A stretch of DNA of 64,000 nt from Candidatus Dojkabacteria bacterium. GTDB lineage: Bacteria > Patescibacteriota > Dojkabacteria > B142 > OLB20. Where the stretch lies: the NCBI GenBank assembly GCA_035444565.1, contig DAOMOX010000003.1:31488-95487 (forward strand). Reading direction: 5' to 3'. This document shows positions 1 to 36,720 of the stretch, piece by piece. Under the pieces are notes generated by a model. The model had not been told where the DNA came from. It made no database searches and saw only the letters and a list, made by a program, of their open reading frames with translations. The stretch's first letter is position 1. Each line of letters begins with the position of its first letter. Made by a program: the position numbers and the translations under genes.

Positions 1-1818
1 CTTTCAGGTTAGACCCGAAGCCAGGTGATCTATCCATGAGCAGGTTGAACCACCTCGAAAGAGGTGGGGAGGACCGAACCCGTGAATGCTGCAAAATTCT
101 GGGATGACTTGTGGATTGGAGTGACACGCTAATCGTACTTGGTGATAGCTGGTTCTCCTCGAAACAGCTTTAGGGTTGGCCTCGGTCGGTAGCATATGGA
201 GGTAGAGCTCTGAATGAATCGCGGGTCCCGTTAGGGATACCGCATTCTCTCAAACTGCGAATGCCATATGTGGAACACCGGGAGTTAGACTACGGGAGAT
301 AAGTTCCGTTGGTCGAAAGGGAAACAGCCCAGACCATCAGTTAAGGTCCCTAAATATATGCTAAGTGGCAAAGGATGTGAAATTTCATAAACAGCCAGGA
401 GGTTTGCTTAGAGGCAGCCATCCTTTAAAGAGTGCGTAACAGCTCACTGGTCTAGAAGTTTTGCGCCTATAATGTAACGGGGCTCAAGCATATTACCGAA
501 ACTATGGATTTATTATCGTGAAGATAATAAGTGGTAGAGGAGCGTTGTATTCAGCAGTGAAGGTGAGCCGTAAGGCCAGCTGGAGCGGATACAAGTGAGA
601 ATGCAGGCATGAGTAGCGCAATTCCGGTGAAAACCCGGGACACCGAATATTCAAGGTTTCCTTGGCTATGTTAATCATCCAAGGGTTAGTCGGTCCTAAG
701 CCGAGGCAGAAGTGCGTAGGCGATGGACATCAGGTTAATATTCCTGAACCGCTTTTAAATCGTTATCAACTATGGGGTGACTGATTTGGAAATGTTTTTG
801 AGTCGATAGGTCGACTTTCAAGTAGTAAGTTAGTTCTGTTTGGTAAATCCGGCAGAATGTTTCCTCGATTCGTCGAGGATGGATGCGAGCTATTACGAGA
901 AGCTGAAATCTACGGATGGAAGCAACATAAACTATTCAGGTCACAAGAAAATCCTCTATGTGAGAGTTAAAGGCGACCGTACCGCAAACCGACACAGGTG
1001 AATTGGTAGAGTATACCAAGGTGATCGAGTAACCCCTTGTTAAGGAATTCGGCAAATTTATCCCGTATCTTTGGTAGAAGGGATGCCCACTATTATTCGT
1101 AATGGTGGGTCGCAGAGAAATAGCCCAATCGACTGTTTAACAAAAACACAGGTCCCTGCTAAAGCGCAAGCTGACGTATAGGGGCTGACGCCTGCCCAAT
1201 GTCAGAAGATTACGGAAGGAGGTTATCCCGCCCTCAGAACTCTTTATAGAGTCTTGAGGGCGGGAGAAGCTTCTGACCTAAGTCCTGATGAATGGCGGCT
1301 GTAACTATAACGGTCCTAAGGTAGCGAAGTTCCTCGGCGCTTAATAGGCGTCCCGCATGAAAGGCGTAACGAGTTGGGCACTGTCTCAACAGGGGACTCG
1401 GCGAACATTGAAATGGCTGTGAAGATGCGGCCTACCCGCACCAGGACAAAAAGACCCCGGGATCTTTACTGTAGCTTGGCATTGAAACAATGCTTTCATT
1501 GTAGAGTGTAGGAGGGAGACTTTGAAACCCGCTCGCCAGAGTGGGTGGAGTCGCCAATGTAACACCTCCCTTTGTGTGTGTTGTTTCTTATCCCAGCCCC
1601 TGATCGGGGTGGGAGACAGTGTTTGGTGGGCAGTTTGACTGGGGCGGTTTCTTACTAAAAAGTAACGTAAGATTCCAAAGGTCGACTCAAGCTGGATGGA
1701 AATCAGCTGTAGAGCATAATGGTATAAGTCGGCTTTACTGCAAGACTGACAGGTCGAGCAGTCACGAAAGTGGGGCATAGTGACCCTTAAGTAGCGTGTG
1801 GAAGCGCTTTTGTTTAAA

Positions 1819-1849
<31 letters not shown>

Positions 1850-1884
1850 GTCTTGCCCAAGCGTCCATAGCGACGGCAAGGTTC

Positions 1885-1915
<31 letters not shown>

Positions 1916-1929
1916 AGGTGGAGAAGCTT

Positions 1930-1978
<49 letters not shown>

Positions 1979-2182
1979 AACCGACGTGAGTCAGGTTGGT
2001 CTCTATCCGGTGTGGGCGTTAGAATTCTGAGGGATCCGACCTTCAGTACGAGAGGACCAAGGTGAAGTAACCTCTGGTGCACCAGTTGTTCCACCAGGAG
2101 CATAGCTGGGTAGCCAAGTTGCTATTAGGATAAACGCTGAAAGCATATAAGCGTGAAGCCACTCCCAAGATGAGAATTCTTC

Positions 2183-2515
2183 ATCCCGCCCTGAAAGTTT
2201 ATAAATATCAGAAATATTCCAGAATTGTTAATTAAAATATCTTATGATTTTTTATGTATATATTTTAAAATCTAAAAAATTAAATAAGCTATATTTCGGC
2301 TTTACCCCGAATTTATTGGTAAGAATAAATAAACATAATTCTGGTAAAAGTCTTTTTACTTCTAAAGCCAAAGATTGGCAACTATTATATGCCGAAATGT
2401 TTATTAATAAACAAGACGCAGTTAATAGGGAACAAACGTTAAAACAGTTTGGCGGATCTTATAGAAGTTTGAAAAAAAGACTAGAAAATACTTTTATAGA
2501 TTTTCAGGGCGGGAT
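2183..2515 (+). other. Insertion (IVS or expansion) in 23S helix 98, bounded by a perfect 14-bp inverted repeat (ATCCCGCCCTGAAA / TTTCAGGGCGGGAT) and containing a GIY-YIG ORF
   Basis: The 23S sequence stops after GAGATGAGAATTCTTC (equivalent to E. coli GAGATGAGTTCTCCC just before H98) and resumes at AAAAGACTCCCAGTAGACTACTGGGTTGATAGGC. The intervening 333 bp are AT-rich, unlike rRNA. The boundary repeats are exact reverse complements. Confidence 0.75.
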
Positions 2516-2531
2516 AAAAGACTCCCAGTAG
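2244..2531 (+). CDS. GIY-YIG nuclease-superfamily small protein (YhbQ/UPF0213-like), encoded inside the 23S rRNA insertion
   Basis: ATG start. N-terminal FYVYILKS...LYFGFTPNL..R...HNSGKS matches the GIY-YIG core (GIY..YIG, then Arg and a His/Asn-SGK segment). The ORF is 95 aa and its last 5 codons plus stop run into resumed 23S sequence. Confidence 0.65.
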   Translation: MIFYVYILKSKKLNKLYFGFTPNLLVRINKHNSGKSLFTSKAKDWQLLYAEMFINKQDAVNREQTLKQFGGSYRSLKKRLENTFIDFQGGIKDSQ

Positions 2532-2883
2532 ACTACTGGGTTGATAGGCTCTAGGTGTAAGCCCTGTAAGGGGTTTAGCCAAGGAGATACTAATAAGTCG
2601 TAACTTAAGGAAATTTTATTGAATGTTAATGCCTTCGTATTTTTTATGAGTACGATAAAGTTCTCGTTTTTACGAGAATAGGTAGGTGAATAACTTAGAC
2701 AACTAAACCTCCATGAATTAGAATAGTTCATCCCGCCCTCTGTAAAGGGCGGGATAAACTCTGGGCGAGAGCCCAGGGGACCAGACTACGTTTAAAAAAC
2801 TAAAAACGTTATGAAGTTGATAGGTCCCGGATTAAATCCGGGACACCAGACTCCGTAACAGAAAACAAGTTTTTTGAACGGAG

Positions 2884-5889: not shown

Positions 5890-7119
5890 ATGAAAAGCGA
5901 GAAAAACCAAATCCAGACTAAACTGGATACCTATTTGGAAGGACTTACAGAACCTCCAAAAACATTCAAACGAGGAGAAATCATCACCGGCAATATTGTC
6001 AAAATATTAAAAGGTGAAATCTTGGTTGATGTTGGTGGTAGGGCAGAAGGAGTCGTTTCAGGTAGAGAGACCAAATTAGAAGGTGAAAAACCAAACTTCA
6101 AAGAAGGAGATGAAATTCTAGTTTACGTAATCAAAGGTGAAAACGAACTAGGACAAATCGAACTTTCCATTCGCAGAACAGGTACAGCACGTAAATGGTT
6201 CATGCTCTCAAAAGCAGAAACCAGCGATGAGGCTGTCACTGTCACTGTCATCGAAGCAAACACAGGAGGTGTTATCGTAGACATCGGTGGAGGACTTCGT
6301 GGTTTTGTACCTACATCACAGCTCGAACATTCACGAATCTATCCTCTTGGTGGATACTCCAATAAAAAAGACGCTGACAAAGAACTGCAAACAAAACTTG
6401 CAGAACTTATCGGCCAGGAATTGGATGTAAAAGTCATCGAGATAGATCGCGAAAAGAACAGAGTCATCTTCTCCGAGAAGAAAGTCACCAATGCAGGTGA
6501 ACTCGATAAACGAGCAGAAACTCTTGTCCGTGTGAAAGTTGGCGATGCACTCGAAGGTGAAATCACCGGTATTGCACCATTCGGTCTTTTTGTAAATGCA
6601 GAAGGACTAGAAGGTTTGGTTCATTTGTCCGAAATATCATGGGATAAAGTTGTTAATCCAGCTGACTTCCATAATGTCGGAGACAAAGTCAAAGTCCAAA
6701 TCATCGGAATAGAAGACGGTGGTAAAAGAGTCGCTTACTCGATTAAAAGACTACTAGAAGATCCATGGGATCAAATAGTGAAAGACTACAAAGTTGGTCA
6801 GAGAGTTAGTGGTGAAATTACCAAGATTGTTGACTATGGAGCTTTCGTCAGAATCGGAGACGGTTTAAATGGATTAGTTCATATTTCTGAACTTTCCGAC
6901 AAATTGGTCCGAAATCCTGAGAAGATTGTCGAAATGGGCAAAACCTACGAACTTGAGATTATTTCTATCTCCAAAGAAGAAAGACATCTAGGATTGAGTT
7001 TGAAAAGAGCTCAATCAGAATCTTCAGAGAAAGTTTCTACAAAAAAGAAAACAAGTAAAAAAGATGATGACTCATCACTCGAACTTGAGAGATTAAATGA
7101 ATTCTTAGGGGAAGAGTAA
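5890..7119 (+). CDS. rpsA: 30S ribosomal protein S1 (four S1 domains)
   Basis: Repeated S1-domain signatures: GEIITGNIVKI...VDVGG, GEITGIAPFGLFVNAEGLEGLVHLSEIS, and GEITKIVDYGAFVRIGDGLNGLVHISELS. Confidence 0.85.
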   Translation: MKSEKNQIQTKLDTYLEGLTEPPKTFKRGEIITGNIVKILKGEILVDVGGRAEGVVSGRETKLEGEKPNFKEGDEILVYVIKGENELGQIELSIRRTGTARKWFMLSKAETSDEAVTVTVIEANTGGVIVDIGGGLRGFVPTSQLEHSRIYPLGGYSNKKDADKELQTKLAELIGQELDVKVIEIDREKNRVIFSEKKVTNAGELDKRAETLVRVKVGDALEGEITGIAPFGLFVNAEGLEGLVHLSEISWDKVVNPADFHNVGDKVKVQIIGIEDGGKRVAYSIKRLLEDPWDQIVKDYKVGQRVSGEITKIVDYGAFVRIGDGLNGLVHISELSDKLVRNPEKIVEMGKTYELEIISISKEERHLGLSLKRAQSESSEKVSTKKKTSKKDDDSSLELERLNEFLGEE

Positions 7120-21976: not shown

Positions 21977-22609
21977 ATGTTTATTGTACTAGACGGAATT
22001 GATGGAGCAGGTAAAGGTCGTCAAAGATCTGAGCTTGTGTCAAAATTATCAAATAATAAGCAACAGATTCAAACAACAGATTTTCCAGACCACCAAGGTG
22101 AAATTTATAAAAATGTAATCCATCCAGCATTACACGAGGAGATTAGTTTAAGCCCACAAGCCTGGTTTTTGGCATTTGTCCTTGACCAACTAATGTGGAA
22201 GAGCAAAATTGATGAAACAATCGGTCAAAAAGATAAGCATTTTATCAGTGATGGATATTTTACAACTACATTGGCCTATCAATGCAAGTTATCTAACGTT
22301 ATGAATGTTGAGGAAGCACTTGAGCTTGCTGATAGGTTTGGAGTCCCTAAGCCAGACTTGGTGATTTTTATTGATGTCGATCCAATAGTCGCAATGAGTA
22401 GGAAAATGATTGAAGAGGGACATGATGAAGGATTAGATATTTTCGAGAGAAATATCACTAAACAACAGAAATTAAGACAGGCGTTCACTGATTTAGCGAA
22501 AGAAAATATCTGGACTGATTGGGAGATTGTAGATGGAAACCTCTCAATTGAAGAAGTTAAGGGTGCAATTATTAAAATCTTAAATAACAAAAAATTATTA
22601 AAAATATGA
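21977..22609 (+). CDS. Thymidylate-kinase-like P-loop kinase (divergent)
   Basis: FIVLDGIDGAGKG resembles the Tmk FIxxEGIDGAGKST motif, but the K is followed by G. The DRY/LID region is replaced by SDGY. It overlaps the next gene by 4 nt. Confidence 0.55.
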   Translation: MFIVLDGIDGAGKGRQRSELVSKLSNNKQQIQTTDFPDHQGEIYKNVIHPALHEEISLSPQAWFLAFVLDQLMWKSKIDETIGQKDKHFISDGYFTTTLAYQCKLSNVMNVEEALELADRFGVPKPDLVIFIDVDPIVAMSRKMIEEGHDEGLDIFERNITKQQKLRQAFTDLAKENIWTDWEIVDGNLSIEEVKGAIIKILNNKKLLKI

Positions 22610-23208
22610 AAAATTATCCAAATATAGAAAAAACATTTTTAATGATAAAGCCTGACGGAGTTAAAAGGGGATTGGTTGGAGATATTTTTTTTCGATTAGA
22701 ACGTGTTGGTTTGAAGCTAGTCTCAGCTAGGATGATTATGGCAACAGAAACACAAGCCAGAAAAAACTATCCAGGGACAAAAGATTGGTTAGTAAAAATG
22801 GGCGAAAAAACCATAAATAATTATAATTCTGATCTTAAGGCAGTCAAAGAGGATCTCGGTACTACTGATACACTTGAAATTGGAACCAATATTTACGAAG
22901 CACTTGTTAAATATCTTATGGAAGGGCCAGTAATTATCTCGGTGTGGGAAGGGAATCATGCGGTTAAAGTTGTCGAAAGGATTGTAGGAAAAACGGATCC
23001 TACAGTGGCGGACATTGGAACAATTCGAAGCGATTATGGATTTGATACTCCTCAGTTTGCAGTAAAATCGGGCAGGATTGTATTTAGAACGCTAATCCAT
23101 AGGTCCGACAGCTCTGAAGAAGCAAAGAGAGAGATAGAACATTGGTTTGGTAAGAATTATAAATATTTAGGAGACTATATACGTACAGATTATACAGACT
23201 CACTTTAA
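22606..23208 (+). CDS. ndk: Nucleoside-diphosphate-kinase-like protein, copy 1 (about 45-aa insertion relative to canonical NDK)
   Basis: TFLMIKPDGVKRGLVGDIFFRLERVGLKLV, GTIRSDYG, and the catalytic-His region LIHRSDSSEEAKREIEHWF. Confidence 0.7.
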   Translation: MKNYPNIEKTFLMIKPDGVKRGLVGDIFFRLERVGLKLVSARMIMATETQARKNYPGTKDWLVKMGEKTINNYNSDLKAVKEDLGTTDTLEIGTNIYEALVKYLMEGPVIISVWEGNHAVKVVERIVGKTDPTVADIGTIRSDYGFDTPQFAVKSGRIVFRTLIHRSDSSEEAKREIEHWFGKNYKYLGDYIRTDYTDSL

Positions 23209-23225
23209 TTGATTTATTCATAAAA

Positions 23226-23822
23226 ATGGAAAAGACACTAGTAATAATTAAACATGATGCAGTGAGTAGGGGATTAATGGGTACGATTATTTCGAGATTC
23301 GAAAGAGTAGGATTAAAAATGGTGGCATTCGAATTTATTCAAAGTACGCAGGACATGGGGCATGGGCACTATCCAACAACTGATGAATGGTTTCAAAAGG
23401 TTGGAGAGAGAACCTTAAACGATTATCTTGCAAAAGGTATCAATCCAAAAGATGAGTTAGGCACAGACAGTCCACTTGAAATTGGTAAACTTGTCAAACA
23501 ATGGAATGTGGAATACCTCACACATGGACCTGTCTTAGCTATCGTTTTTGAAGGCCCGGATGCAGTTACACTAGTTCGTAAGTTGGTAGGTAATACTATC
23601 CCATCAAAAGCTGATCCTGGGACGATTCGAGGTGATTTTGGAATGGATAGTATAGAAATGGCTAATAAGCAAAAACGACCTCTTTACAACTTAATTCACG
23701 CCAGTGGCGAGATATCAGAAGCAGAGGCTGAGATTTCTCTGTGGTTTGGTAATCAAGAGGTGTTTGATTACAAACTACATAGTAATTCCATGACTGGGGT
23801 ATATGGTAAACTAGGAAGTTAA
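23226..23822 (+). CDS. ndk: Nucleoside-diphosphate-kinase-like protein, copy 2
   Basis: LVIIKHDAVSRGLMGTIISRFERVGLKMV, GTIRGDFG, and NLIHASGEISEAEAEISLWF. It is a paralog of the preceding gene. Confidence 0.7.
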   Translation: MEKTLVIIKHDAVSRGLMGTIISRFERVGLKMVAFEFIQSTQDMGHGHYPTTDEWFQKVGERTLNDYLAKGINPKDELGTDSPLEIGKLVKQWNVEYLTHGPVLAIVFEGPDAVTLVRKLVGNTIPSKADPGTIRGDFGMDSIEMANKQKRPLYNLIHASGEISEAEAEISLWFGNQEVFDYKLHSNSMTGVYGKLGS

Positions 23823-24823: not shown

Positions 24824-26311
24824 TTAGAGGTTAAACGGAAGTGATGAAGTATTTAGTACAAGTTTAAATAGATTTTTGTTCAGTATATTTTCTTCTGAAG
24901 CGTCTTCAACCATAAGTGTGAGGCTAGATCCATCTTTCTGGAACTTATAATAGCCATTGTCGATAGTGGTATTATTCAAAATATCTATTATATTACTACC
25001 ATCATTCTCGCTAATTTGTATCTTTTCTAGAGGATAGTTATTTATAATCACAAGGTTTGAATTATTAATGTATTTAGGCTTTAAGTTTATATCAATCATT
25101 GACGGAGTAGTCTTAACAGACAAAGACAAGTCAATTAGTGATTTTTCAATTACGGTAAAGACGACTTGATTGTTGTTATTAAAGATAATACTTGTGCCAT
25201 CAAAGCTTATGTTGATAATTTCTCCAGTATCACTAATCTTAATAAATTGTTTTTTCTCCAGATGGTAATAGTAGTAGCTTGTATCACTTCTGATAATAAT
25301 CGAAGAACCATCTCTAGCTAATCTGAGGTCGTTTATATTATTTATGGGGAAATTCGAAGGCAACTGTAAAACACGAGCTACCTGATTCTGATATAAGCTG
25401 ATACTATTATTTATGGAAGAATATGCATAAAGTATTTCTCCATCTGTATCATAGATAGGTTTTGTCTCAGGTAAGTAACCTACGATTGTTTTTTCCTGAT
25501 TTACGATATTATATTCAATAATGATTTCATCATTCGATACTATAAGAGAGTTATTGTTGTTGAACCAGTTTACTTTAGTAGGATAGAAACCAATTTGTTC
25601 GTTTAAATTTATAATTTTTTCGGCTGTGTTTGACTTTGTGGGATCAAAAATTATGACAGTTTGAAGAGTAGGATTTACAATTAGCATCTTATTATTTGTT
25701 TGATCGATTTTTACTTCAATATCAGGATCGGTAAAATATGATAGTGAAGTATCTTCAAGCGCAATAATTTTTTCTGGATCAGAGTTTCTTCTAAAGAATA
25801 ATTCTTGTTCTTCAAGTCTAAGTCGCCATAGGCCTTGATCATTTGGTTCTACAAGGGAATCATTTACAAGATAATAAGCATAAGATCCATCTTCGCTGAA
25901 GAATAGTTTTGAGATGTTAGTTTGTGTTAATTGAGTAAGTTCTGGTTCGAGGGGAAATAACTTCACTTGAATAGTAGTAACGTATGAGGGGGAAATCTCA
26001 ATATCTTTTTCCCAACTATGAAATTTTGTGGATTCAATTCTAATGGTATGAATACCCGGAGTGATATTATTGATTAATCTTTCGTCTGATTTAATTTGTT
26101 TGTCATCAAGGTATACCAAATTTTCTTTATCTTCAGGTTGTATTTCTAGTCTTATACTACCAGTCTCGACTATACCTGTTCTGGTGATTTTCCCCCCTTG
26201 GGTGTAGATAATTGCTATAATAGCTGTACTAATGAATAGCGTAACTACTATAATTACCAATAAAGTATTGAGGAACTTTTTTGTTCTGATTCGTTTTTTT
26301 GATTTGCTCAC
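24824..26311 (-). CDS. Signal-anchored extracytoplasmic protein with a PEGA-like domain and a probable beta-rich (propeller-like) body
   Basis: N-terminal TM helix. GIHTIRIESTKFHSWEKDIEISPSYVTTIQVKL resembles PEGA. The rest is N/S/I-rich beta-strand periodicity. Confidence 0.5.
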   Translation of the reverse strand: MSKSKKRIRTKKFLNTLLVIIVVTLFISTAIIAIIYTQGGKITRTGIVETGSIRLEIQPEDKENLVYLDDKQIKSDERLINNITPGIHTIRIESTKFHSWEKDIEISPSYVTTIQVKLFPLEPELTQLTQTNISKLFFSEDGSYAYYLVNDSLVEPNDQGLWRLRLEEQELFFRRNSDPEKIIALEDTSLSYFTDPDIEVKIDQTNNKMLIVNPTLQTVIIFDPTKSNTAEKIINLNEQIGFYPTKVNWFNNNNSLIVSNDEIIIEYNIVNQEKTIVGYLPETKPIYDTDGEILYAYSSINNSISLYQNQVARVLQLPSNFPINNINDLRLARDGSSIIIRSDTSYYYYHLEKKQFIKISDTGEIINISFDGTSIIFNNNNQVVFTVIEKSLIDLSLSVKTTPSMIDINLKPKYINNSNLVIINNYPLEKIQISENDGSNIIDILNNTTIDNGYYKFQKDGSSLTLMVEDASEENILNKNLFKLVLNTSSLPFNL

Positions 26312-26375: not shown

Positions 26376-27383
26376 ATGGCAGGAAAAAAAATAGCAATAG
26401 ATTTAGGTACAGCGAATTTTTTAGTAGCTGTAGAAGGCAAGGGCATAATTCTAAACGAGCCTACCGTTGTAGCTATTGATATGGACACCAAGAAAGTCCT
26501 TGCAGTAGGCACAAATGCAAAACAAATGTTAGGGAAAGTGCCAGGAAATATTATTGCTCGTAGACCACTTAAACAAGGAGTAATTGCAAGTTATAAGCTG
26601 ACTGAAGCGTTGATTTCTGCTATGCTTGCAAAAGCACTAGGTAGGACTAGGTTCTTTAAACCAGAGGTAATGATTAGTGTTCCTGCTGGCATCACGTCAG
26701 TGGAACAAAGAGCAGTTATAGAAGCTGCAGTTACAGCCGGGGCTGGTAAAGTTTATCTTGTTCCCGAACCAATTGCCGCTGCAATAGGAGCACAGTTGCC
26801 AGTGAGCTCCAGTGCAGGGAATATGATTGTTAATATGGGAGGAGGAACATCGGAAATTGCAATAATTTCAATGAATGGTATTGTCACTTACGAGTCCAAA
26901 AGAGTAGCAGGTGATGCGATTAATGATGCAATAATTAATTTCGTTCGAAAGAAATATTCACTGGCCATTGGTGAGCAAATGGCAGAGCAAATTAAAATTG
27001 ATATTGGAAGTGCTAAGATGATGGACAAACCATTGGAAAAACATGTTCGTGGTAGAGATGTAACAACTGGATTGCCACATTCAATTCATCTAACTTCAAA
27101 TGATTTCGTAGAGCCTATTAATCAAGTACTCAACCAAATTCTTGCATCGATAAAAAATGTCCTTGAGAAAACTCCTCCAGAGTTATCCTCCGATATTATA
27201 GATAGGGGAATAGTATTAAGCGGAGGAACTTCGATATTGAGAAATATTGATGAGCTTTTTACTAATGCAATTGGAGTTCCTTTTCATACCGTAGAAAACC
27301 CACAGGAATGCGTTATAAATGGTATTCTTGAGTCACTAGACCACATTGAGGTACTAAAAGCAGGATTGAGAAGTATTACCTGA
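26376..27383 (+). CDS. mreB: Rod-shape protein MreB (actin-like ATPase), paralog 1
   Basis: KIAIDLGTANFLVAV, NEPTVVAID, and GGGTSEIAIIS motifs. Confidence 0.85.
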   Translation: MAGKKIAIDLGTANFLVAVEGKGIILNEPTVVAIDMDTKKVLAVGTNAKQMLGKVPGNIIARRPLKQGVIASYKLTEALISAMLAKALGRTRFFKPEVMISVPAGITSVEQRAVIEAAVTAGAGKVYLVPEPIAAAIGAQLPVSSSAGNMIVNMGGGTSEIAIISMNGIVTYESKRVAGDAINDAIINFVRKKYSLAIGEQMAEQIKIDIGSAKMMDKPLEKHVRGRDVTTGLPHSIHLTSNDFVEPINQVLNQILASIKNVLEKTPPELSSDIIDRGIVLSGGTSILRNIDELFTNAIGVPFHTVENPQECVINGILESLDHIEVLKAGLRSIT

Positions 27384-28788
27384 TTTTTGATGGGTCGATT
27401 AAGAATTTGGTTAAAGATTTCCTACCTATAATTGCATTGTATGTAAGACCACTTCTGTCAAATATGGATACTTTTGTTTCGTATGTTGTGTCTTGAATTT
27501 TGATTTTAAGTATAATATTGACTCGGATACTCATCCCGTGACTAGATTTGACGAGATTCACCTCATAAACATCATCGTGTTTTTTAGTTAATTCCTTGTT
27601 TAATTTTCGCACAATTTTTAAACCTTCCTCATAGTCTACATTCTCAGGAATTATCCCACTGTCTATAATATCTAATACCTCTGTATATCCTAATTTCCTA
27701 GCAATTTCTTTGTCGATTGAAGTAGAGTCGGCACCTGTATCGACTTTTGCAATAGTAGCAGTAGTTTTATCGTCTTTTCCATAAAAAGTCACAGTTTCGT
27801 AAATACCAATAAGATCCTTTCCAGCTATGCTTTCAATACCTTCTTCAATTTCTCCTCCGAACATGTCTTTTCCAAGTCGTACACCTTTCTCGACATCTTT
27901 AACCTTCAAACCTGTGGCTTTTTTCAGTCTCCATCTTAGTCCATCATCGTTAGCTAATTGTATAGAAAGCCCAGGACGAGCATTTAGCTCAACAATAAGT
28001 GGTCCCAAATCTCTATCGAGAAGAAAATCTACAGCAGCAAATCTCAGGTTGGTAGCTTTTTGTGCTTCTACCGCATACTGCAACATTTTGCTCCAGTAGG
28101 GGATACGTAAACCGCTCAATCGAAGTTTAGTCCCAGGTACATATTCTATGTATCCACTTTTCCCGTGAATTGCGCTTGTTGTACGACCTTTTGCTAAGTC
28201 AATTCCAACTCCAATCGCCCCCATCGCCAAGTTAGCTTTTCCGGCAGATTCTTTTGTTGCTAGGCGGATATAGGACATAATTGGAATATTATTGAAAACG
28301 ATCACTCGGATATCAGGTGTTCCTTTGTAAGAATAGTATTTAAATTCATGATGAATTTTTACTCGTTCTTCAATCAGAATACTGTCTGGTTCTTGGTGAA
28401 TGGAGTAACGTCCATTTAATATATCGATGCAGTGATGATAAAATTCATCTGGGGAGACCTTTGATTTATCCGCACGAATCCAATTGTTCTGTTTATCCCT
28501 GTTATAAAAAATCTCAATTCCTCCACCTTCGAGACCTGTCACGGGCTTTAAAACGAAACTATTTGGTAAGGTACTAAAGTCAAGTTCCCTAAGTTCTTTT
28601 TGGTTATGGATTATGGTGATGAGTTTGGGTGTGGGTATTTCTGCCTTGTTTAACACAGTTTTGGTCAAAACCTTATCATCCGCAATCTTCTTGGATTTAG
28701 TAGTATTATACTCGCTAATGTACGAAAGATTTCTTTCGTTGATACCTAGCACTTGTTTTCTGTTTTTCCAATAATCGAGGTAGCTCAT
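27376..28788 (-). CDS. ATP-grasp amidoligase (RimK/alpha-L-glutamate-ligase-related) fused to a C-terminal retropepsin-like 'putative ATP-dependent zinc protease' domain
   Basis: ATP-grasp blocks (VLKPVTGLEGGGIEIF, IVELNARPG) and C-terminal VDTGADSTSI...IIGRKSL, the D-T-G-A aspartic-protease signature. It is translationally coupled (ATGA overlap) to the upstream 7TM gene. Confidence 0.65.
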   Translation of the reverse strand: MSYLDYWKNRKQVLGINERNLSYISEYNTTKSKKIADDKVLTKTVLNKAEIPTPKLITIIHNQKELRELDFSTLPNSFVLKPVTGLEGGGIEIFYNRDKQNNWIRADKSKVSPDEFYHHCIDILNGRYSIHQEPDSILIEERVKIHHEFKYYSYKGTPDIRVIVFNNIPIMSYIRLATKESAGKANLAMGAIGVGIDLAKGRTTSAIHGKSGYIEYVPGTKLRLSGLRIPYWSKMLQYAVEAQKATNLRFAAVDFLLDRDLGPLIVELNARPGLSIQLANDDGLRWRLKKATGLKVKDVEKGVRLGKDMFGGEIEEGIESIAGKDLIGIYETVTFYGKDDKTTATIAKVDTGADSTSIDKEIARKLGYTEVLDIIDSGIIPENVDYEEGLKIVRKLNKELTKKHDDVYEVNLVKSSHGMSIRVNIILKIKIQDTTYETKVSIFDRSGLTYNAIIGRKSLTKFLIDPSKIR

Positions 28789-29474
28789 GATTCAGAATCT
28801 TTTTTTAATAGTTCTCTAAATCTATAAATCTCGCTTAATCTTAGACCAGTGAATCTACCAATAAAATAATTCACTGGAAAACTAAGTAATATAATCCAAG
28901 GATAATTCAGGAAAGCATTTTGTACGCTCTGGGAGCTTATTACTAAGAAACAGATCATTCCAAGTAAGATTGTTTGCAATGATAACATGAGTGCGGTAGT
29001 TGTCTGTTTCGAAGCGAGTAGGTTAGTAAATCTCTCTGAAATTGAAGCGAGTAATATTAATGAAAATATGTCAACACGCAATATACCACCTCTGTCCATT
29101 AGGTCTAGTATAAATAGAACTACTAGTAGGGAAATTGTCACGTTTGTTGTGACAATGGCTAGCTTCGAATAATAATGTAGAGTTAAAGGCTGAACAATCT
29201 TATAACTAATATACGAACTAATAAAAACAATTAATGTGATGAAAAGTCCATATTTCAAACCCTGCCATACTGAAACACCTCCATCGATTCTACTGAACTG
29301 ATAGAACATAAAAGTTAATATCACTGGCACATAGATACCAAATGATTTCACGCCCATTATGTATTTGGCAAAGCTGATAATCGTAATAACAAGGGGTAGG
29401 GTAACCAAGAAAATTAGTGTGTTCGGATCTAGACTGAGATTGTTCTCAAATTGTGATAATGCGATTCCAGGCAT
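28785..29474 (-). CDS. Polytopic (7TM-type) membrane protein, the partner of the ATP-grasp/protease gene
   Basis: 229 aa with about 6-7 hydrophobic helices. The 4-nt start/stop overlap with the downstream gene implies an operon. The architecture matches the 7TM module of 7TM-transglutaminase/ATP-grasp systems (inference). Confidence 0.5.
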   Translation of the reverse strand: MPGIALSQFENNLSLDPNTLIFLVTLPLVITIISFAKYIMGVKSFGIYVPVILTFMFYQFSRIDGGVSVWQGLKYGLFITLIVFISSYISYKIVQPLTLHYYSKLAIVTTNVTISLLVVLFILDLMDRGGILRVDIFSLILLASISERFTNLLASKQTTTALMLSLQTILLGMICFLVISSQSVQNAFLNYPWIILLSFPVNYFIGRFTGLRLSEIYRFRELLKKDSES

Positions 29475-29544
29475 AGTTTCAATACTAAAATATGTGTAGA
29501 TTATACCTTAAATTAAATAAAAACAACACGAAACAAAAACCCCG

Positions 29545-29575
29545 TAATGAAGTACGGGGTTTAGTTTTTCGTGAT
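29545..29575 (-). terminator. Rho-independent terminator after rplL
   Basis: On the minus strand: CCCCGTACTTCATTACGGGG followed by TTTTTGTTTCG. Confidence 0.75.
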
Positions 29576-35260: not shown

Positions 35261-35464
35261 ATGTCTGGATCTACATCACCATTATTACAAGTTGGTCAAG
35301 TTGCTGGATTAGCCACAGCATCTGGAGCTTCTGGAATGGTCCTTGCCGCAACCGGCAGCTCGATTTTTCAATATTTATTTGTTGGTTTTGGACTTGTGTT
35401 CGCCCTAGTTCTTATAACTAGGACTATAAAAACAATTTCCACCGATATTGAAAACCACAATTGA
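35261..35464 (+). CDS. Hypothetical small hydrophobic protein (~67 aa from the internal ATG)
   Basis: Gly/Ala-rich segment followed by a TM helix (FQYLFVGFGLVFALVLI). Its stop overlaps the GT2 start. The upstream part of ORF 35168 overlaps the GIY-YIG gene and is unlikely to be coding. Confidence 0.3.
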   Translation: MSGSTSPLLQVGQVAGLATASGASGMVLAATGSSIFQYLFVGFGLVFALVLITRTIKTISTDIENHN

Positions 35465-36720
35465 TATTTATTGCATATCTAGTCTTTGTTCTAAGTGCTA
35501 TCAATCTAATCAGGATGGCTTTTTTTCTTATAGGAAGTGACGTTCACGATATAATTCGGAGTAGAAGACATGGCCAAAAAGAATTACAAGAATATAATCC
35601 ATTAGTAACGGTAATCGTTCCTGCTCATAATGAAGAAAAAACGCTATTAAGAAACATCAAAAGTGTAGCAGCAAGCACTTATAAGTACATTGAGCTTATC
35701 ATTGTAAATGATAGCAGTACTGACGCAACTAAGAGAATTGCTTGTAAATTTCAAAGAGAATATTTTGGAGTAAAAGTAGTGGATGTTCAAGTTCGTGGAA
35801 AAGCTAAAGCATTAAATCTCGGACTTAAATATGCTAATGGTACATTAGTTATGTGTTTAGATGCCGACTCAATGCTATCTCCAAATGCAATAGAAAACGC
35901 TGTCAAGGAATTTAGAGATGAGAACTTAGTAGCTCTTTCTGCCAATGTCAAAATTCTCGCTGATAAAGGGTTCTTAAATTTGCTTCAACGCGTTGAGTAT
36001 TTGTTGAATTATCAGATGAAAAAGGCCGAGGTCTTTGCACATATCCAATATATTATTGGGGGAGTAGGGTCTATGTATAGATTAACAGAATTAAAGGAAG
36101 TTGGTTTATATGATACGGATACAATAACCGAAGATATAGATCTTTCCATGAAAATAATTGAATTTTACGGAAAAGACAAAAAAATTGGTTATAGTCCAAA
36201 TGTTGTCGTATACACTGAAGCGGTCTTGAGCTTACCAGATTTGTATAAACAAAGAATTAGATGGAAATACGGGAGATATCAGTCATTCTTTAAACGAAGA
36301 AAGTTGTTCTTTTCCACTCGATACAACTTTTTACTAAGTTGGATATACTTACCTTATGCACTTTATGCCGAATTCTCTTATTTACTTGAGCCGTTGATTC
36401 TGGGTTACGTCCTATACCTGATTATTCAGGTGAACGATTATGGAACGTTGATTACATGTATAATTGTATTTGTTACTTTTACAACGTTCCAAATGTTGGG
36501 AGCTTCTAACGGTTATAATTTAGTGGAACGATTGAAATTATCCTTTTTATCGATTCTGTTAATGGTTCCTATGTATCTTGTAGTGTATTATGAGTATTTA
36601 GTGAGTGTTGTTGGATTGATAAGCATTAAAAAAATTATGTCCGAAAGAAAAAAAGGTACATTTAATTGTGAGTGGAATCCTGTTGAGAGATCTGGGAGTA
36701 CTACATTCATCGGTGGCTGA
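35461..36720 (+). CDS. Processive family-2 glycosyltransferase (NodC/HasA/PgaC/cellulose-synthase-like), integral membrane
   Basis: VIVPAHNEE, IIVNDSSTD, and CLDADSML (D, DxD) motifs plus the Q-R-I-R-W signature, with flanking TM helices. The true start may be the ATG near 35515. Confidence 0.8.
   Translation: MIFIAYLVFVLSAINLIRMAFFLIGSDVHDIIRSRRHGQKELQEYNPLVTVIVPAHNEEKTLLRNIKSVAASTYKYIELIIVNDSSTDATKRIACKFQREYFGVKVVDVQVRGKAKALNLGLKYANGTLVMCLDADSMLSPNAIENAVKEFRDENLVALSANVKILADKGFLNLLQRVEYLLNYQMKKAEVFAHIQYIIGGVGSMYRLTELKEVGLYDTDTITEDIDLSMKIIEFYGKDKKIGYSPNVVVYTEAVLSLPDLYKQRIRWKYGRYQSFFKRRKLFFSTRYNFLLSWIYLPYALYAEFSYLLEPLILGYVLYLIIQVNDYGTLITCIIVFVTFTTFQMLGASNGYNLVERLKLSFLSILLMVPMYLVVYYEYLVSVVGLISIKKIMSERKKGTFNCEWNPVERSGSTTFIGG

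What the first reader, a model, noticed from the sequence alone, without database searches (positions are those of the whole stretch)
27376..29474. Two-gene 7TM membrane protein plus ATP-grasp/retropepsin-like 'zinc protease' cassette, wedged between mreB and the rplL operon
The membrane gene and the ATP-grasp gene overlap by 4 nt, so they are translationally coupled and form a unit. It sits between the otherwise housekeeping mreB and rplKAJL clusters, where bacteria normally continue with rpoBC.

RimK-like ATP-grasp amidoligases fused or linked to a DTGA aspartyl-protease-like domain, and paired with a 7TM (often inactive-transglutaminase-fused) receptor, are predicted peptide-ligation or peptide-tagging systems. 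Their substrates are unknown. This minimal version has a 7TM-only partner and no transglutaminase domain, which is unusual. In a reduced genome, such a system next to the ribosomal operon may modify a ribosomal or envelope protein.
Basis: partly seen in the sequence, partly recalled or inferred. Interest (0 to 1): 0.55.

Follow-up and report, generated by a model that had tools for sequence, protein, structure and literature searches.

The report
Membrane-linked peptide ligase–protease gene pair
A Dojkabacteria (candidate-phyla-radiation) bacterium carries two tightly coupled genes, one for a seven-helix membrane protein and one for a glutamate-type peptide ligase fused to a retrovirus-like protease; together they are a stripped-down version, found in several classes of this phylum, of the recently named rlo stress-tolerance system of Pseudomonas, whose chemistry is still unknown.

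Summary
Two minus-strand genes overlap by ATGA. The first (28785-29474, 229 aa) is a PF14402 seven-helix protein. The second (27376-28788, 470 aa) is a PF14397/TIGR02291-type ATP-grasp ligase fused to a retropepsin-like domain with an invariant DTGA motif.

The window comes from a Dojkabacteria (Patescibacteria) genome. The same pair, 7TM gene directly upstream of the ligase-protease gene, occurs in about 75 of 80 related loci from several Patescibacteria classes. It is therefore a conserved module, not an oddity of this genome.

It is homologous to rloABC of Gammaproteobacteria, with three differences:
- the protease is fused to the cytoplasmic ligase instead of being secreted;
- the membrane partner lacks the inactive-transglutaminase ectodomain;
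- some relatives add a MATCAP-type carboxypeptidase domain.

Haloarchaea fuse the 7TM domain directly to the ligase, which argues that the two proteins work in physical contact.

The link to rplKAJL is synteny specific to Dojkabacteria. A terminator-like hairpin separates the two, so the position does not point to a ribosomal substrate.

The most likely function is a membrane-docked alpha-glutamate/peptide ligase with a built-in protease that trims acidic chains, acting on the envelope. The substrate is unknown. This is a new variant of a known but poorly understood kind, of moderate interest.

The parts
28785..29474 (-). Gene for a 229-aa seven-helix membrane protein (PF14402; RloB-like 7TM module without ectodomain), predicted N-out/C-in
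   Evidence: ORF. PF14402 1.5e-16. NCBIfam RloB model matched only at positions 312-507 of 508. BLASTP to Legionella RloB residues 310-508, E 3e-9. AF2 model has seven long helices plus a C-terminal helix, pLDDT 79. Topology is my reading of the charge distribution, and agrees with the signal peptide + PKD ectodomains found N-terminal to the 7TM in long homologues.
28815..28850 (-). Cytoplasmic C-terminal motif TGLRLSEIYRFR of the 7TM protein (residues 209-220); candidate docking site for the ligase
   Evidence: G210, L211, R212, E215, R218 and F219 are invariant in 18 sequences. A strict form of the motif, G[LIVM]R[LIVM]xE[LIVMFY]x[RM][FY][RKQ], was found by pattern search in 43 of 72 loci, and a related form occurs in Legionella RloB. 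In haloarchaeal fusions the ligase starts about 40 residues after this motif.
29034..29036 (-). Codon of invariant intramembrane Glu147 (SISERF, helix 5)
   Evidence: Invariant in alignment A2. Aligned to the ER of Legionella RloB. Lies inside helix 136-155 of the model.
28785..28788 (-). ATGA overlap of the 7TM stop codon and the ligase start codon
   Evidence: Sequence. The same 4-nt overlap occurs in 7 loci; overlap or a gap of at most 27 nt in 63 of 72 loci. The same 4-nt rloB/rloC overlap is annotated in Legionella.
27376..28788 (-). Gene for the 470-aa ATP-grasp ligase / retropepsin-like protease fusion (cytoplasmic; no signal peptide or TM segment)
   Evidence: ORF. More than 120 homologous clusters of about 470 aa. 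132 genome hits. AF2 model pLDDT 84, two domains joined by a disordered linker at residues 313-324.
27919..28734 (-). ATP-grasp ligase domain (residues 19-290), RloC/TIGR02291 type
   Evidence: PF14397 1.3e-62. TIGR02291 8e-77, 258 bits against a cut-off of 314. 34.5% identity to the Legionella RloC-type protein, which scores 436 bits on TIGR02291. Foldseek top hits are ArgX/LysX and RimK. K81, E140, D254, E267 and R271 are invariant.
27385..27816 (-). Retropepsin-like aspartic protease domain (residues 325-468), one DTGA per chain, no cysteine
   Evidence: Family profile against the solved PF05618-type chain 9g58_A, E 5.9e-5 over residues 327-469. NCBIfam RloA3 3e-6. Pairwise alignments to 2pma, 9g58 and 9g59 and to Legionella RloA-like.
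27730..27741 (-). Catalytic motif D350-T-G-A353, preceded by K348
   Evidence: Read from the sequence. K348, D350, G352 and A353 are invariant in 48 sequences. Corresponds to K46/D48 of RloA.
29537..29562 (-). Intrinsic-terminator-like hairpin (10-bp stem, T-rich tail) between the rplL stop and the cassette
   Evidence: Analogous hairpins of different sequence in 26 of 36 loci with rplL-7TM adjacency.
29500..29505 (-). Perfect TATAAT hexamer 25 nt upstream of the 7TM ATG (possible own promoter; consensus match only)
   Evidence: Read from the sequence. Not reported by the promoter scan because the -35 region is poor.

Best explanation
This is the Patescibacteria form of the rlo (RimK-like ligase / 7TM / retropepsin) system, compacted into two proteins.

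Shown:
- A PF14402 seven-helix membrane protein and a cytoplasmic RloC-type ATP-grasp ligase are encoded as an overlapping pair.
- The ligase carries a C-terminal retropepsin-like domain with an intact DTGA motif.
- That domain keeps the Lys/Arg residues that bind poly-glutamate in RloA.

Inferred mechanism:
- The ligase docks on the conserved cytoplasmic face of the 7TM protein, at the C-terminal TGLRxxExxRF helix.
- It uses ATP to add alpha-linked glutamate (or a similar residue) to a carboxylate acceptor, building an acidic peptide or tail.
- Ligase oligomers bring two protease domains together to form the two-aspartate active site.
- That site cuts long acidic runs and so sets chain length and turnover, as RimB does for RimK.
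- The 7TM partner couples the activity to the membrane or envelope, either by exporting or presenting the product or by gating the enzyme.

The substrate and the physiological role are not known. The Pseudomonas genetics suggests envelope or osmotic homeostasis.
For: Domain identities.

Homology to a canonical rloABC operon, found on Legionella plasmid L081:
- the RloC-type protein there is TIGR02291 (436 bits), and our ligase is 34.5% identical to it;
- our 7TM aligns to RloB residues 310-508 and shares the ER and G.RL.E..RF motifs;
- the gene order 7TM then ligase and the 4-nt overlap are the same.

Obligate pairing: the 7TM gene is directly upstream of the fusion gene in about 75 of 80 loci, down to 36% identity (72 in the clustering, a few more by tblastn); the exceptions are loci cut at the contig end (L055, L067, L070) or where the 7TM gene was found by only one of the two methods (L041, L079). 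These loci come from Dojka-, Woese-, Roizman-, Microgenomates, Morani-, Paceibacterota and Kerfeldbacteria.

Rosetta-stone fusion: 7TM (PF14402) fused to the ligase (PF14397) in one polypeptide, in 71 haloarchaeal clusters of at least 500 aa among the hits.

Protease competence: K348, D350, R422 and R445 are invariant. Their spacings (2 and 23 residues) match K46, D48, R114 and R137 of RloA. Those residues coordinate poly-Glu, and R114 and R137 are required in vitro and in vivo (alignments). The domain has no cysteines, as in cytosolic RimB-type enzymes.

Precedent: RimB trims poly-Glu and stimulates RimK, and an N-terminal RimB-RimK hybrid is proteolytically active.

Support for a write/erase logic: related loci add a MATCAP-type carboxypeptidase domain to the same polypeptide.

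Genetics in P. aeruginosa: deleting rloB or rloC suppresses loss of the RloA proteases.
Against: - There is no biochemical evidence for any RloC-type ligase. Glutamate specificity is inferred from family kinship and from the protease pocket only.
- The ligase scores below the TIGR02291 trusted cut-off (258 against 314 bits). The protease domain scores far below all the RloA and RimB equivalog cut-offs.
- In Pseudomonas the protease acts in the periplasm. Here it is cytoplasmic, so the logic of the pathway may differ.
- The 7TM fold matches no solved transporter or receptor (best Foldseek E about 1), so its role is open.
- No candidate acceptor was found. The window has no poly-E proteins. The C-terminal tail of the 7TM protein itself is not consistently Glu-terminated.
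- D. psychrophila RimBK showed protease activity but no detectable glutamylation of RpsF.
Confidence: 0.55

Rival explanations
1. It is a ribosome-modification system of the RimK/RimB type. The ligase would poly-glutamylate a ribosomal protein (S6, or a protein of the neighbouring operon), and the fused protease would trim the tail.
For: - The domains are homologous to RimK and RimB.
- The cassette lies directly downstream of rplKAJL in 36 Dojkabacteria-type loci.
- Ribosomal protein S1 in this window ends in ...GEE.
- RimB-RimK fusions exist.
Against: - The ligase belongs to the RloC/TIGR02291-PF14397 branch: 258 bits, against 52 bits on the RimK family model whose cut-off is 143.
- It is always paired with a membrane protein, and in Haloarchaea it is fused to one.
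- The rplL linkage is missing in the other Patescibacteria classes.
- A terminator-like hairpin separates it from rplL.
- L7/L12, L10, L1, L11 and NusG do not end in Glu.
Confidence: 0.1
2. It is a cell-envelope building or remodelling enzyme. The ligase would add amino acids to a peptidoglycan, teichoic-acid-like or polysaccharide precursor at the membrane. The 7TM protein would act as the flippase or scaffold, and the protease as an editing activity.
For: - Pfam describes PF14397 as 'sugar-transfer associated'.
- In many related loci the pair is followed by extra ATP-grasp ligases: RimK-like in 24 loci, GSH-S-like in 13, ATP-grasp_4/LAL in 5. A Mur-ligase M+C protein follows in 6 loci, and GT2 glycosyltransferases also occur.
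- mreB and a conserved membrane-anchored 495-aa protein are neighbours in Dojkabacteria.
- Pseudomonas rlo mutants have defects in cell shape, beta-lactam sensitivity and osmotic tolerance.
- A Shewanella RloB-like mutant over-produces vesicles.
Against: - None of the accessory ligase genes is present in this 64-kb window, so they are not obligatory partners.
- The protease pocket looks tuned to poly-acidic peptides rather than to muropeptides.
- The 7TM model has no similarity to known flippases.
Confidence: 0.2
3. It is a sensor-effector pair. The 7TM protein would be a membrane receptor, as ectodomain variation in other members suggests, that switches the cytoplasmic ligase/protease on or off. 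The product would be a cytoplasmic acidic peptide, for example an osmolyte store.
For: - The region N-terminal to a constant 7TM core varies: none, PKD, a short segment, or inactive transglutaminase.
- Conserved residues concentrate on the cytoplasmic loops and the C-terminal helix.
- Glutamate is an osmolyte, and the rlo phenotype is osmotic.
Against: - Minimal forms without any ectodomain are common (63 of 150 clusters).
- An invariant buried Glu and polar residues within the membrane suggest more than a passive anchor.
- In Pseudomonas the proteases that act downstream are periplasmic, which implies that something crosses the membrane.
Confidence: 0.15

Closest known systems
rloABC operon of Pseudomonas aeruginosa and other Gammaproteobacteria (Lormand et al. 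2025, PMC12239564); canonical example inspected here on Legionella adelaidensis plasmid NZ_LR134414.1
   Same: - All three modules are homologous: a TIGR02291/PF14397 ATP-grasp ligase, a PF14402 7TM module and a PF05618 retropepsin with DTGA.
- The gene order is 7TM then ligase, with a 4-nt overlap.
- The Lys/Arg residues that bind poly-Glu in the protease are conserved.
   Different: - The protease is fused to the C-terminus of the cytoplasmic ligase. It is not a separate secreted protein with a signal peptide and a disulfide.
- The membrane protein lacks the roughly 300-aa inactive-transglutaminase ectodomain.
- The host is a Patescibacteria lineage, whereas the paper reported 96% of RloB hits in Proteobacteria.
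- Scores lie below the NCBIfam cut-offs.
RimK-RimB (RimABK) ribosomal S6 poly-glutamylation system, and the RimBK hybrid of Desulfotalea, Flavobacteriales and Rhodobacterales (PMC11957791)
   Same: An ATP-grasp alpha-L-glutamate-type ligase is combined with a cytoplasmic retropepsin-like poly-Glu endopeptidase. A ligase-protease fusion exists, and its protease half is active.
   Different: - The domain order is opposite: RimB is N-terminal in RimBK and C-terminal here.
- The ligase belongs to a different ATP-grasp subfamily (RimK model 52 bits against a cut-off of 143).
- RimK systems have no 7TM partner.
- Their target is ribosomal S6.
LysX/ArgX-LysW amino-group carrier system
   Same: These are the closest solved structures to the ligase domain, together with RimK (Foldseek E about 2e-11). 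That these enzymes ligate to a C-terminal Glu of a carrier protein is recalled from memory.
   Different: No LysW-like carrier, no biosynthetic operon and no membrane partner. The sequence relationship is remote (TIGR02144 at 30 bits).
Eukaryotic tubulin code enzymes: TTL/TTLL ATP-grasp ligases together with MATCAP carboxypeptidases
   Same: The logic is to add and remove C-terminal amino acids. Some Patescibacteria relatives of this gene fuse the ligase to a PF08014 MATCAP domain with HExxH and EEGLA/QEGF motifs.
   Different: The protein in this window has no MATCAP domain. The similarity lies in logic and domain family, not in orthology.
Haloarchaeal 7TM-ligase fusion proteins (PF14402 + PF14397), annotated only as 'sugar-transfer associated ATP-grasp domain-containing protein'
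   Same: They have the same two modules as this cassette, in the same order, joined in one chain.
   Different: No PF05618 is recorded in the precomputed domain lists for these proteins. The lineage is archaeal, and the proteins are uncharacterised.

Membership tests
rloABC system | RloC-type ATP-grasp ligase (NCBIfam TIGR02291, alpha-L-glutamate ligase-like) | tested here: inconclusive
   TIGR02291 is by far the best model (8e-77, 258 bits, positions 9-291 of 317), but the score is below the trusted cut-off of 314.2. The control Legionella RloC-type protein scores 436 bits. Pairwise identity is 34.5%.
rloABC system | RloB: 7TM module (PF14402) encoded directly upstream of the ligase | tested here: met
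   PF14402 at 61 bits, above the cut-off of 25. Aligns to RloB residues 310-508. The gene order and 4-nt overlap are as in Legionella.
rloABC system | RloB: N-terminal periplasmic inactive-transglutaminase domain | tested here: not met
   The protein is 229 aa and begins about 17 residues before helix 1. The RloB model is matched only at positions 312-507 of 508, at 36.9 bits against a cut-off of 900.
rloABC system | RloA: separate, secreted retropepsin-like protease with a signal peptide and a conserved disulfide | tested here: not met
   The protease domain is residues 325-468 of the cytoplasmic ligase polypeptide. It has no signal peptide and no cysteine. The RloA models give 17-27 bits against cut-offs of 210-280.
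rloABC system | Protease active site DTGA plus basic residues that bind poly-Glu (K46, R114, R137 of RloA) | tested here: met
   K348, D350, G352, A353, R422 and R445 are invariant (T351 in at least 90%). The spacings are identical to those in RloA and 2pma. The mapping rests on motif spacing and on alignment to 2pma, 9g58 and 9g59, not on a direct alignment to the P. aeruginosa RloA sequence.
rloABC system | Role in hypo-osmotic tolerance, cell shape or antibiotic tolerance; loss of rloB or rloC suppresses loss of rloA | not testable with these tools
   This is genetic evidence from P. aeruginosa only.
RimK/RimB ribosomal modification | RimK-family ligase (TIGR00768 / PRK10446) | tested here: not met
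   TIGR00768 gives 52 bits against a cut-off of 143. PRK10446 gives 14 bits against a cut-off of 331.
RimK/RimB ribosomal modification | Substrate is ribosomal protein S6 ending in Glu-Glu | not tested
   I did not look for rpsF in the window. The adjacent ribosomal proteins do not end in Glu.
RimK/RimB ribosomal modification | RimB equivalog (NF052261) | tested here: not met
   The model is not among the hits at E <= 0.1 for the window protein. It does hit the Legionella RloA-like control.
Clan AA retropepsin-like peptidases (PF05618 'Zn_protease') | Single DTG(A) lobe that must dimerise; retropepsin fold | tested here: inconclusive
   The window protein alone scores 17.5 bits, below the cut-off of 27. 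The family profile hits the solved PF05618-type chain 9g58_A at E 5.9e-5 over the whole domain, and most homologues pass PF05618. A related 944-aa protein scores 36.5 bits. The fold of the domain could not be searched on its own, because ATP-grasp hits filled the Foldseek list. Dimerisation was not tested.

The most novel reading that the evidence does not exclude
The two-gene Patescibacteria module could be the minimal working core of a machine shared by Patescibacteria, Gammaproteobacteria and Haloarchaea. In this reading the PF14402 seven-helix domain is a new kind of membrane translocase or acceptor with no solved structural relative. It would take a ligase-made poly-alpha-glutamate (or other acidic peptide) to the cell surface, with the fused retropepsin setting chain length. 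That would make it a previously unrecognised envelope or osmotic-homeostasis polymer pathway in reduced-genome bacteria that lack most envelope biosynthesis.
Probability: 0.2. Interest if true: 0.7.

Novelty: new variant of a known kind. Interest (0 to 1): 0.45.

Why it matters
The biochemical function of the rlo system is unknown, even in Pseudomonas, where it affects antibiotic tolerance, biofilm formation, cell shape and osmotic survival. The Patescibacteria version reduces the system to two proteins: a bare 7TM core and one polypeptide that carries both the ligase and the protease.

This has three consequences:
- The transglutaminase-like ectodomain and secretion of the protease are dispensable for the core function.
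- Together with the haloarchaeal 7TM-ligase fusions, it argues that ligase and 7TM act as a physical complex.
- It offers a small construct for reconstitution and structural work.

It also widens the known range of the system well beyond Proteobacteria. The published survey put 96% of RloB hits there.

Tried and rejected
1. Idea: the ligase glutamylates the acidic C-terminal tail of its own 7TM partner. In the 43 loci where the C-terminal motif was matched, the tails are short (median 9 residues). They most often end in Lys (15), with Glu last in only 7. Not supported.

2. Search for poly-E or acidic-run proteins in the window as encoded substrates. No run of at least 4 E and no run of at least 6 D/E was found. 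Only three proteins end in E.

3. Structural clue to the 7TM function. Foldseek against the PDB gave nothing with E <= 0.001. The best hits (RnfA, NqrD/E, TM-score 0.45-0.57, E about 1) are not significant.

4. Test for a hidden relationship of the 7TM to other membrane families, for example capsule CapC-type proteins. I scanned 18 members against Pfam at E <= 10. Only PF14402 was shared by more than one member.

5. Search of this window for the accessory ligase, Mur-ligase and MATCAP genes seen in other loci. All were absent. The only match was an unrelated GT2 gene at 35461-36720.

6. Attempt to read Iyer et al. 2009 (PMC3268129), the original prediction of this gene neighbourhood. The paper is not held, so what it says about fused or 7TM-only forms could not be checked.

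7. A multimer prediction of the 7TM + ligase complex could not be run with the tools provided.

Full report
OBSERVATION

The junction reads TCATGAGC, so the start codon of the second gene overlaps the TGA stop of the first by 4 nt. Upstream on the same strand lie secE, nusG, rplK, rplA, rplJ and rplL. Downstream, mreB converges and overlaps the 3' end by 8 nt. No ORF in the window is large enough to be rpoB or rpoC.

The window is identical to a Dojkabacteria (WS6, Patescibacteria) metagenome-assembled genome.

DOMAIN CONTENT

The 229-aa protein matches only PF14402 (7TM_transglut; 61 bits, cut-off 25). It matches only the 7TM part of the NCBIfam RloB model, positions 312-507 of 508. All 18 aligned homologues hit PF14402 and share no other family.

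The 470-aa protein has three parts:
- an N-terminal ATP-grasp domain: PF14397 1.3e-62; best NCBIfam model TIGR02291 'alpha-L-glutamate ligase-like', 258 bits, below its cut-off of 314;
- a disordered linker (residues 313-324);
- a C-terminal domain of about 145 residues.

On its own, the C-terminal domain hits PF05618 and the RloA models only weakly. At the family level it is a retropepsin-like peptidase:
- most homologues at 54-66% identity carry PF05618;
- a 14-sequence profile hits the solved PF05618-type chains 9g58, 9g59 and 2pma over the whole domain;
- K348, D350, G352 and A353 (T351 nearly so), R422, R445 and G455-R456 are invariant in 48 sequences.

The RloA paper names K46, D48 (catalytic), R114 and R137 as the residues that bind poly-Glu. 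R114 and R137 are needed both in vitro and in vivo. The spacings K-x-D and R(23)R are the same here and in the aligned structures. The domain has no cysteine, as in cytosolic RimB-type enzymes and unlike the disulfide-stapled secreted RloA.

The closest solved structures to the ligase domain are ArgX/LysX and RimK. RimK adds alpha-linked Glu to the C-terminus of RpsF and makes poly-alpha-L-glutamate; that ArgX/LysX ligate to the C-terminal Glu of the carrier LysW is my recollection.

IS IT A UNIT, AND HOW WIDESPREAD IS IT?

A scan of one genome per GTDB species found 132 genomes that encode a relative; 80 loci were fetched. The 7TM gene lies immediately upstream of the ligase-protease gene in about 75 of these 80 loci, down to 36% identity; the exceptions are loci cut at the contig end or with the 7TM gene detected by only one of my two methods. 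The record titles span Dojkabacteria, Woesebacteria, Roizmanbacteria, Microgenomates, Moraniibacteriota, Paceibacterota/Parcubacteria and Kerfeldbacteria. In 63 of 72 loci the genes overlap or are at most 27 nt apart.

By contrast, nusG-rplKAJL is upstream only in the set of loci that holds every Dojkabacteria-titled record. The other classes have unrelated housekeeping neighbours: genes I read from their sequences as ruvC, yebC, pth, mnmA and dsbA-like.

In this window a 10-bp GC-rich hairpin with a T-rich tail (29562..29537) follows rplL. A perfect TATAAT hexamer lies 25 nt before the 7TM start. Hairpins of this kind, with different sequences, are present in 26 of 36 rplL-7TM spacers.

The cassette is therefore a conserved, probably separately transcribed module. 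Its position after rplL is synteny specific to one class, not an insertion particular to this genome and not evidence for a ribosomal target. Read-through, as at the E. coli rplL-rpoB attenuator, cannot be excluded.

RELATION TO KNOWN SYSTEMS

In 2025 the gammaproteobacterial three-gene neighbourhood was named rloABC: RloA, a secreted retropepsin; RloB, an inactive transglutaminase + 7TM protein; RloC, an ATP-grasp protein.
- The RloA proteases cleave runs of at least 8 Glu in vitro.
- They are needed for hypo-osmotic survival, normal cell shape, biofilm formation and beta-lactam tolerance.
- Deleting rloB or rloC suppresses the protease-less phenotype.

I retrieved a canonical operon on a Legionella adelaidensis plasmid.
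- Its three proteins match the RloA models, the RloB model (472 bits) and TIGR02291 (436 bits).
- Its rloB and rloC overlap by 4 nt.
- Our ligase is 34.5% identical to that RloC-type protein.
- Our 7TM aligns with RloB residues 310-508, including the intramembrane ER motif and the C-terminal G.RL.E..RF motif.

A second relevant precedent is RimK/RimB. RimB is a cytoplasmic retropepsin-like endopeptidase that trims poly-Glu tails and stimulates RimK. A natural hybrid with RimB N-terminal to RimK is proteolytically active.

The fusion here differs from that hybrid in three ways: the domain order is opposite, the ligase is of the RloC type rather than the RimK type (RimK family model 52 bits against a cut-off of 143), and it has a 7TM partner. 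It is therefore an independent fusion.

VARIATION WITHIN THE FAMILY

A profile search of 1.84 billion representative proteins found 1,897 PF14402-type clusters. The 7TM module always lies at the C-terminus. Of the 150 closest clusters:
- 63 are 7TM-only (265 aa or shorter);
- 35 carry a short N-terminal extension;
- 52 are longer than 450 aa.

The seven longest of ten non-minimal relatives sampled (492-743 aa) carry a PKD domain; the three shorter ones (290-432 aa) show nothing beyond PF14402, and none shows a Pfam-detectable transglutaminase domain. The bare 7TM form is thus normal in this lineage.

On the ligase side, some relatives differ from the window protein:
- some have a second tandem ligase-protease paralogue;
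- some extend the polypeptide with a PF08014 MATCAP-type metallocarboxypeptidase domain;
- in one Dojkabacteria sub-clade that extension comes with a degenerate DTS motif in the retropepsin domain.

Many loci place further ATP-grasp ligases, a Mur-ligase-like protein and GT2 glycosyltransferases just downstream. None of these is present in this window.

An unannotated 584-aa ORF on a Halobacterium plasmid fuses PF14402 to PF14397 in one chain. This architecture recurs in about 70 haloarchaeal clusters. Such a Rosetta-stone fusion, with the ligase attached to the cytoplasmic C-terminus of the 7TM, is the strongest computational evidence that the two products of this cassette act as a physical complex.

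THE 7TM PROTEIN

The AF2 model (pLDDT 79, pTM 0.73) shows seven long helices plus a C-terminal amphipathic helix. I infer an N-out/C-in topology from the charge distribution and from the signal-peptide/PKD ectodomains of longer homologues.

Invariant residues cluster in four places:
- the first cytoplasmic loop (G41-x-K-x-x-G-x-Y-x-P50);
- Y101;
- an intramembrane Glu (E147);
- the C-terminal TGLRxxExxRF helix.

Foldseek finds no significant solved relative (best E about 1). The structure therefore does not settle whether the protein is a transporter, an anchor or a receptor.

MECHANISM, WITH SHOWN AND INFERRED STEPS MARKED

Shown:
- the domain identities;
- conservation of the catalytic and poly-Glu-binding residues;
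- obligate and translationally tight pairing of the two genes;
- fusion of the two modules in another lineage;
- homology to rloABC.

Inferred:
- the ligase docks on the cytoplasmic face of the 7TM protein;
- it builds an alpha-linked acidic (most likely Glu) chain on an unknown acceptor;
- two protease domains pair through ligase oligomerisation and cut long chains;
- the 7TM protein exports or presents the product, or gates the enzyme;
- the physiological output concerns the envelope or osmotic homeostasis.

I put this at about 0.55. The rivals are an envelope-precursor ligase (0.2), a sensor-effector pair that makes a cytoplasmic peptide (0.15) and RimK-like ribosome modification (0.1).

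NEGATIVE RESULTS

- The window has no encoded poly-E or acidic-run proteins, and the neighbouring ribosomal proteins do not end in Glu.
- The tail of the 7TM protein itself is not consistently Glu-terminated.
- Iyer et al. 2009, the original in-silico description of this neighbourhood, could not be read.

VERDICT

The finding is real and was correctly identified. It is a conserved variant, spread across several Patescibacteria classes, of a known but biochemically unsolved system. Its location is not informative about its substrate. Its value is as a minimal form of the rlo machinery and as evidence, with the haloarchaeal fusions, for a 7TM-ligase complex. Novelty: new variant of a known kind. 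Interest: 0.45.

Noticed in passing
L083 3164-4918 (Halobacterium sp. DL1 plasmid CP007061.1, record 106092-107846, reverse strand): A 584-aa ORF with no CDS listed in the PLSDB table fuses the PF14402 7TM domain (residues 51-243) to the PF14397 ATP-grasp ligase (residues 286-557). The same architecture recurs in about 70 haloarchaeal protein clusters of 526-823 aa.
   Followed up: yes
L039 6001-8340; L063 5986-8463; L056 5992-8826 (also L035, L048, L049, L052, L064): In some Patescibacteria the ligase-retropepsin polypeptide is extended by a PF08014 MATCAP-type metallocarboxypeptidase domain (HExxH, EEGLA/QEGF motifs). In L039 and L063 (the only two of that sub-clade whose sequences I read) the retropepsin motif is degenerate (DTS-RR instead of DTGAD).
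   Followed up: partly
Loci L008-L070, downstream of the ligase-protease gene (e.g. L012 7423-8697; L028 9603-10496; L052 7021-8301): Recurrent extra genes lie just after the cassette: a RimK-like ATP-grasp (24 loci), a GSH-S-like ATP-grasp (13), an ATP-grasp_4/L-amino-acid-ligase type (5), a Mur-ligase M+C protein (6) and GT2 glycosyltransferases. This suggests a larger peptide or envelope biosynthetic neighbourhood in some genomes. None is present in this window.
   Followed up: partly
L050 4434-6032; L058 4353-6014: These are long Patescibacteria 7TM partners (532-553 aa). They carry a signal peptide, a PKD domain and an unassigned region of about 200 aa in front of the PF14402 module, instead of a recognisable inactive-transglutaminase domain.
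   Followed up: partly
window 5890-7119 (+): Ribosomal protein S1 (four S1 domains) ends in ...FLGEE. A Glu-Glu C-terminus is what RimK-type ligases extend on S6. I did not check whether this terminus is conserved or relevant.
   Followed up: no
window 24824-26311 (-): A 495-aa protein with an N-terminal membrane anchor has no Pfam match. It is conserved next to mreB in 19 related Dojkabacteria loci. It may be a lineage-specific cell-shape or envelope factor.
   Followed up: no
window 22606-23208 and 23226-23822 (+): Two tandem nucleoside-diphosphate-kinase paralogues of about 200 aa each match the NDK profile in two separate stretches, which suggests an insertion. The tandem pair recurs in many related loci (cluster c9).
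   Followed up: no
window 1-2614 (+): The 23S rRNA match covers model positions 701-2925 (2,225 positions) but spans 2,614 nt. About 390 nt are therefore extra, which could be an insertion or intron of the kind common in candidate-phyla-radiation rRNAs. A 174-aa ORF (1386-1910, -) lies inside.
   Followed up: no
L041, L043, L057, L062, L073-L075, L078, L079 and many loci titled 'uncultured Candidatus Saccharibacteria': The record titles of these third-party metagenome bins ('uncultured Gammaproteobacteria', 'Pseudomonadales', 'Saccharibacteria') disagree with their gene content. They share flanking gene clusters with Woesebacteria, Roizmanbacteria and Microgenomates loci or with Dojkabacteria loci, so the titles look unreliable.
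   Followed up: partly
L067 876-1322; L051, L053, L054, L061, L065 (second gene after the fusion): Some genomes carry a second tandem ligase-retropepsin paralogue directly after the first. In L067 there is instead a stand-alone retropepsin-like ORF of about 150 aa.
   Followed up: no
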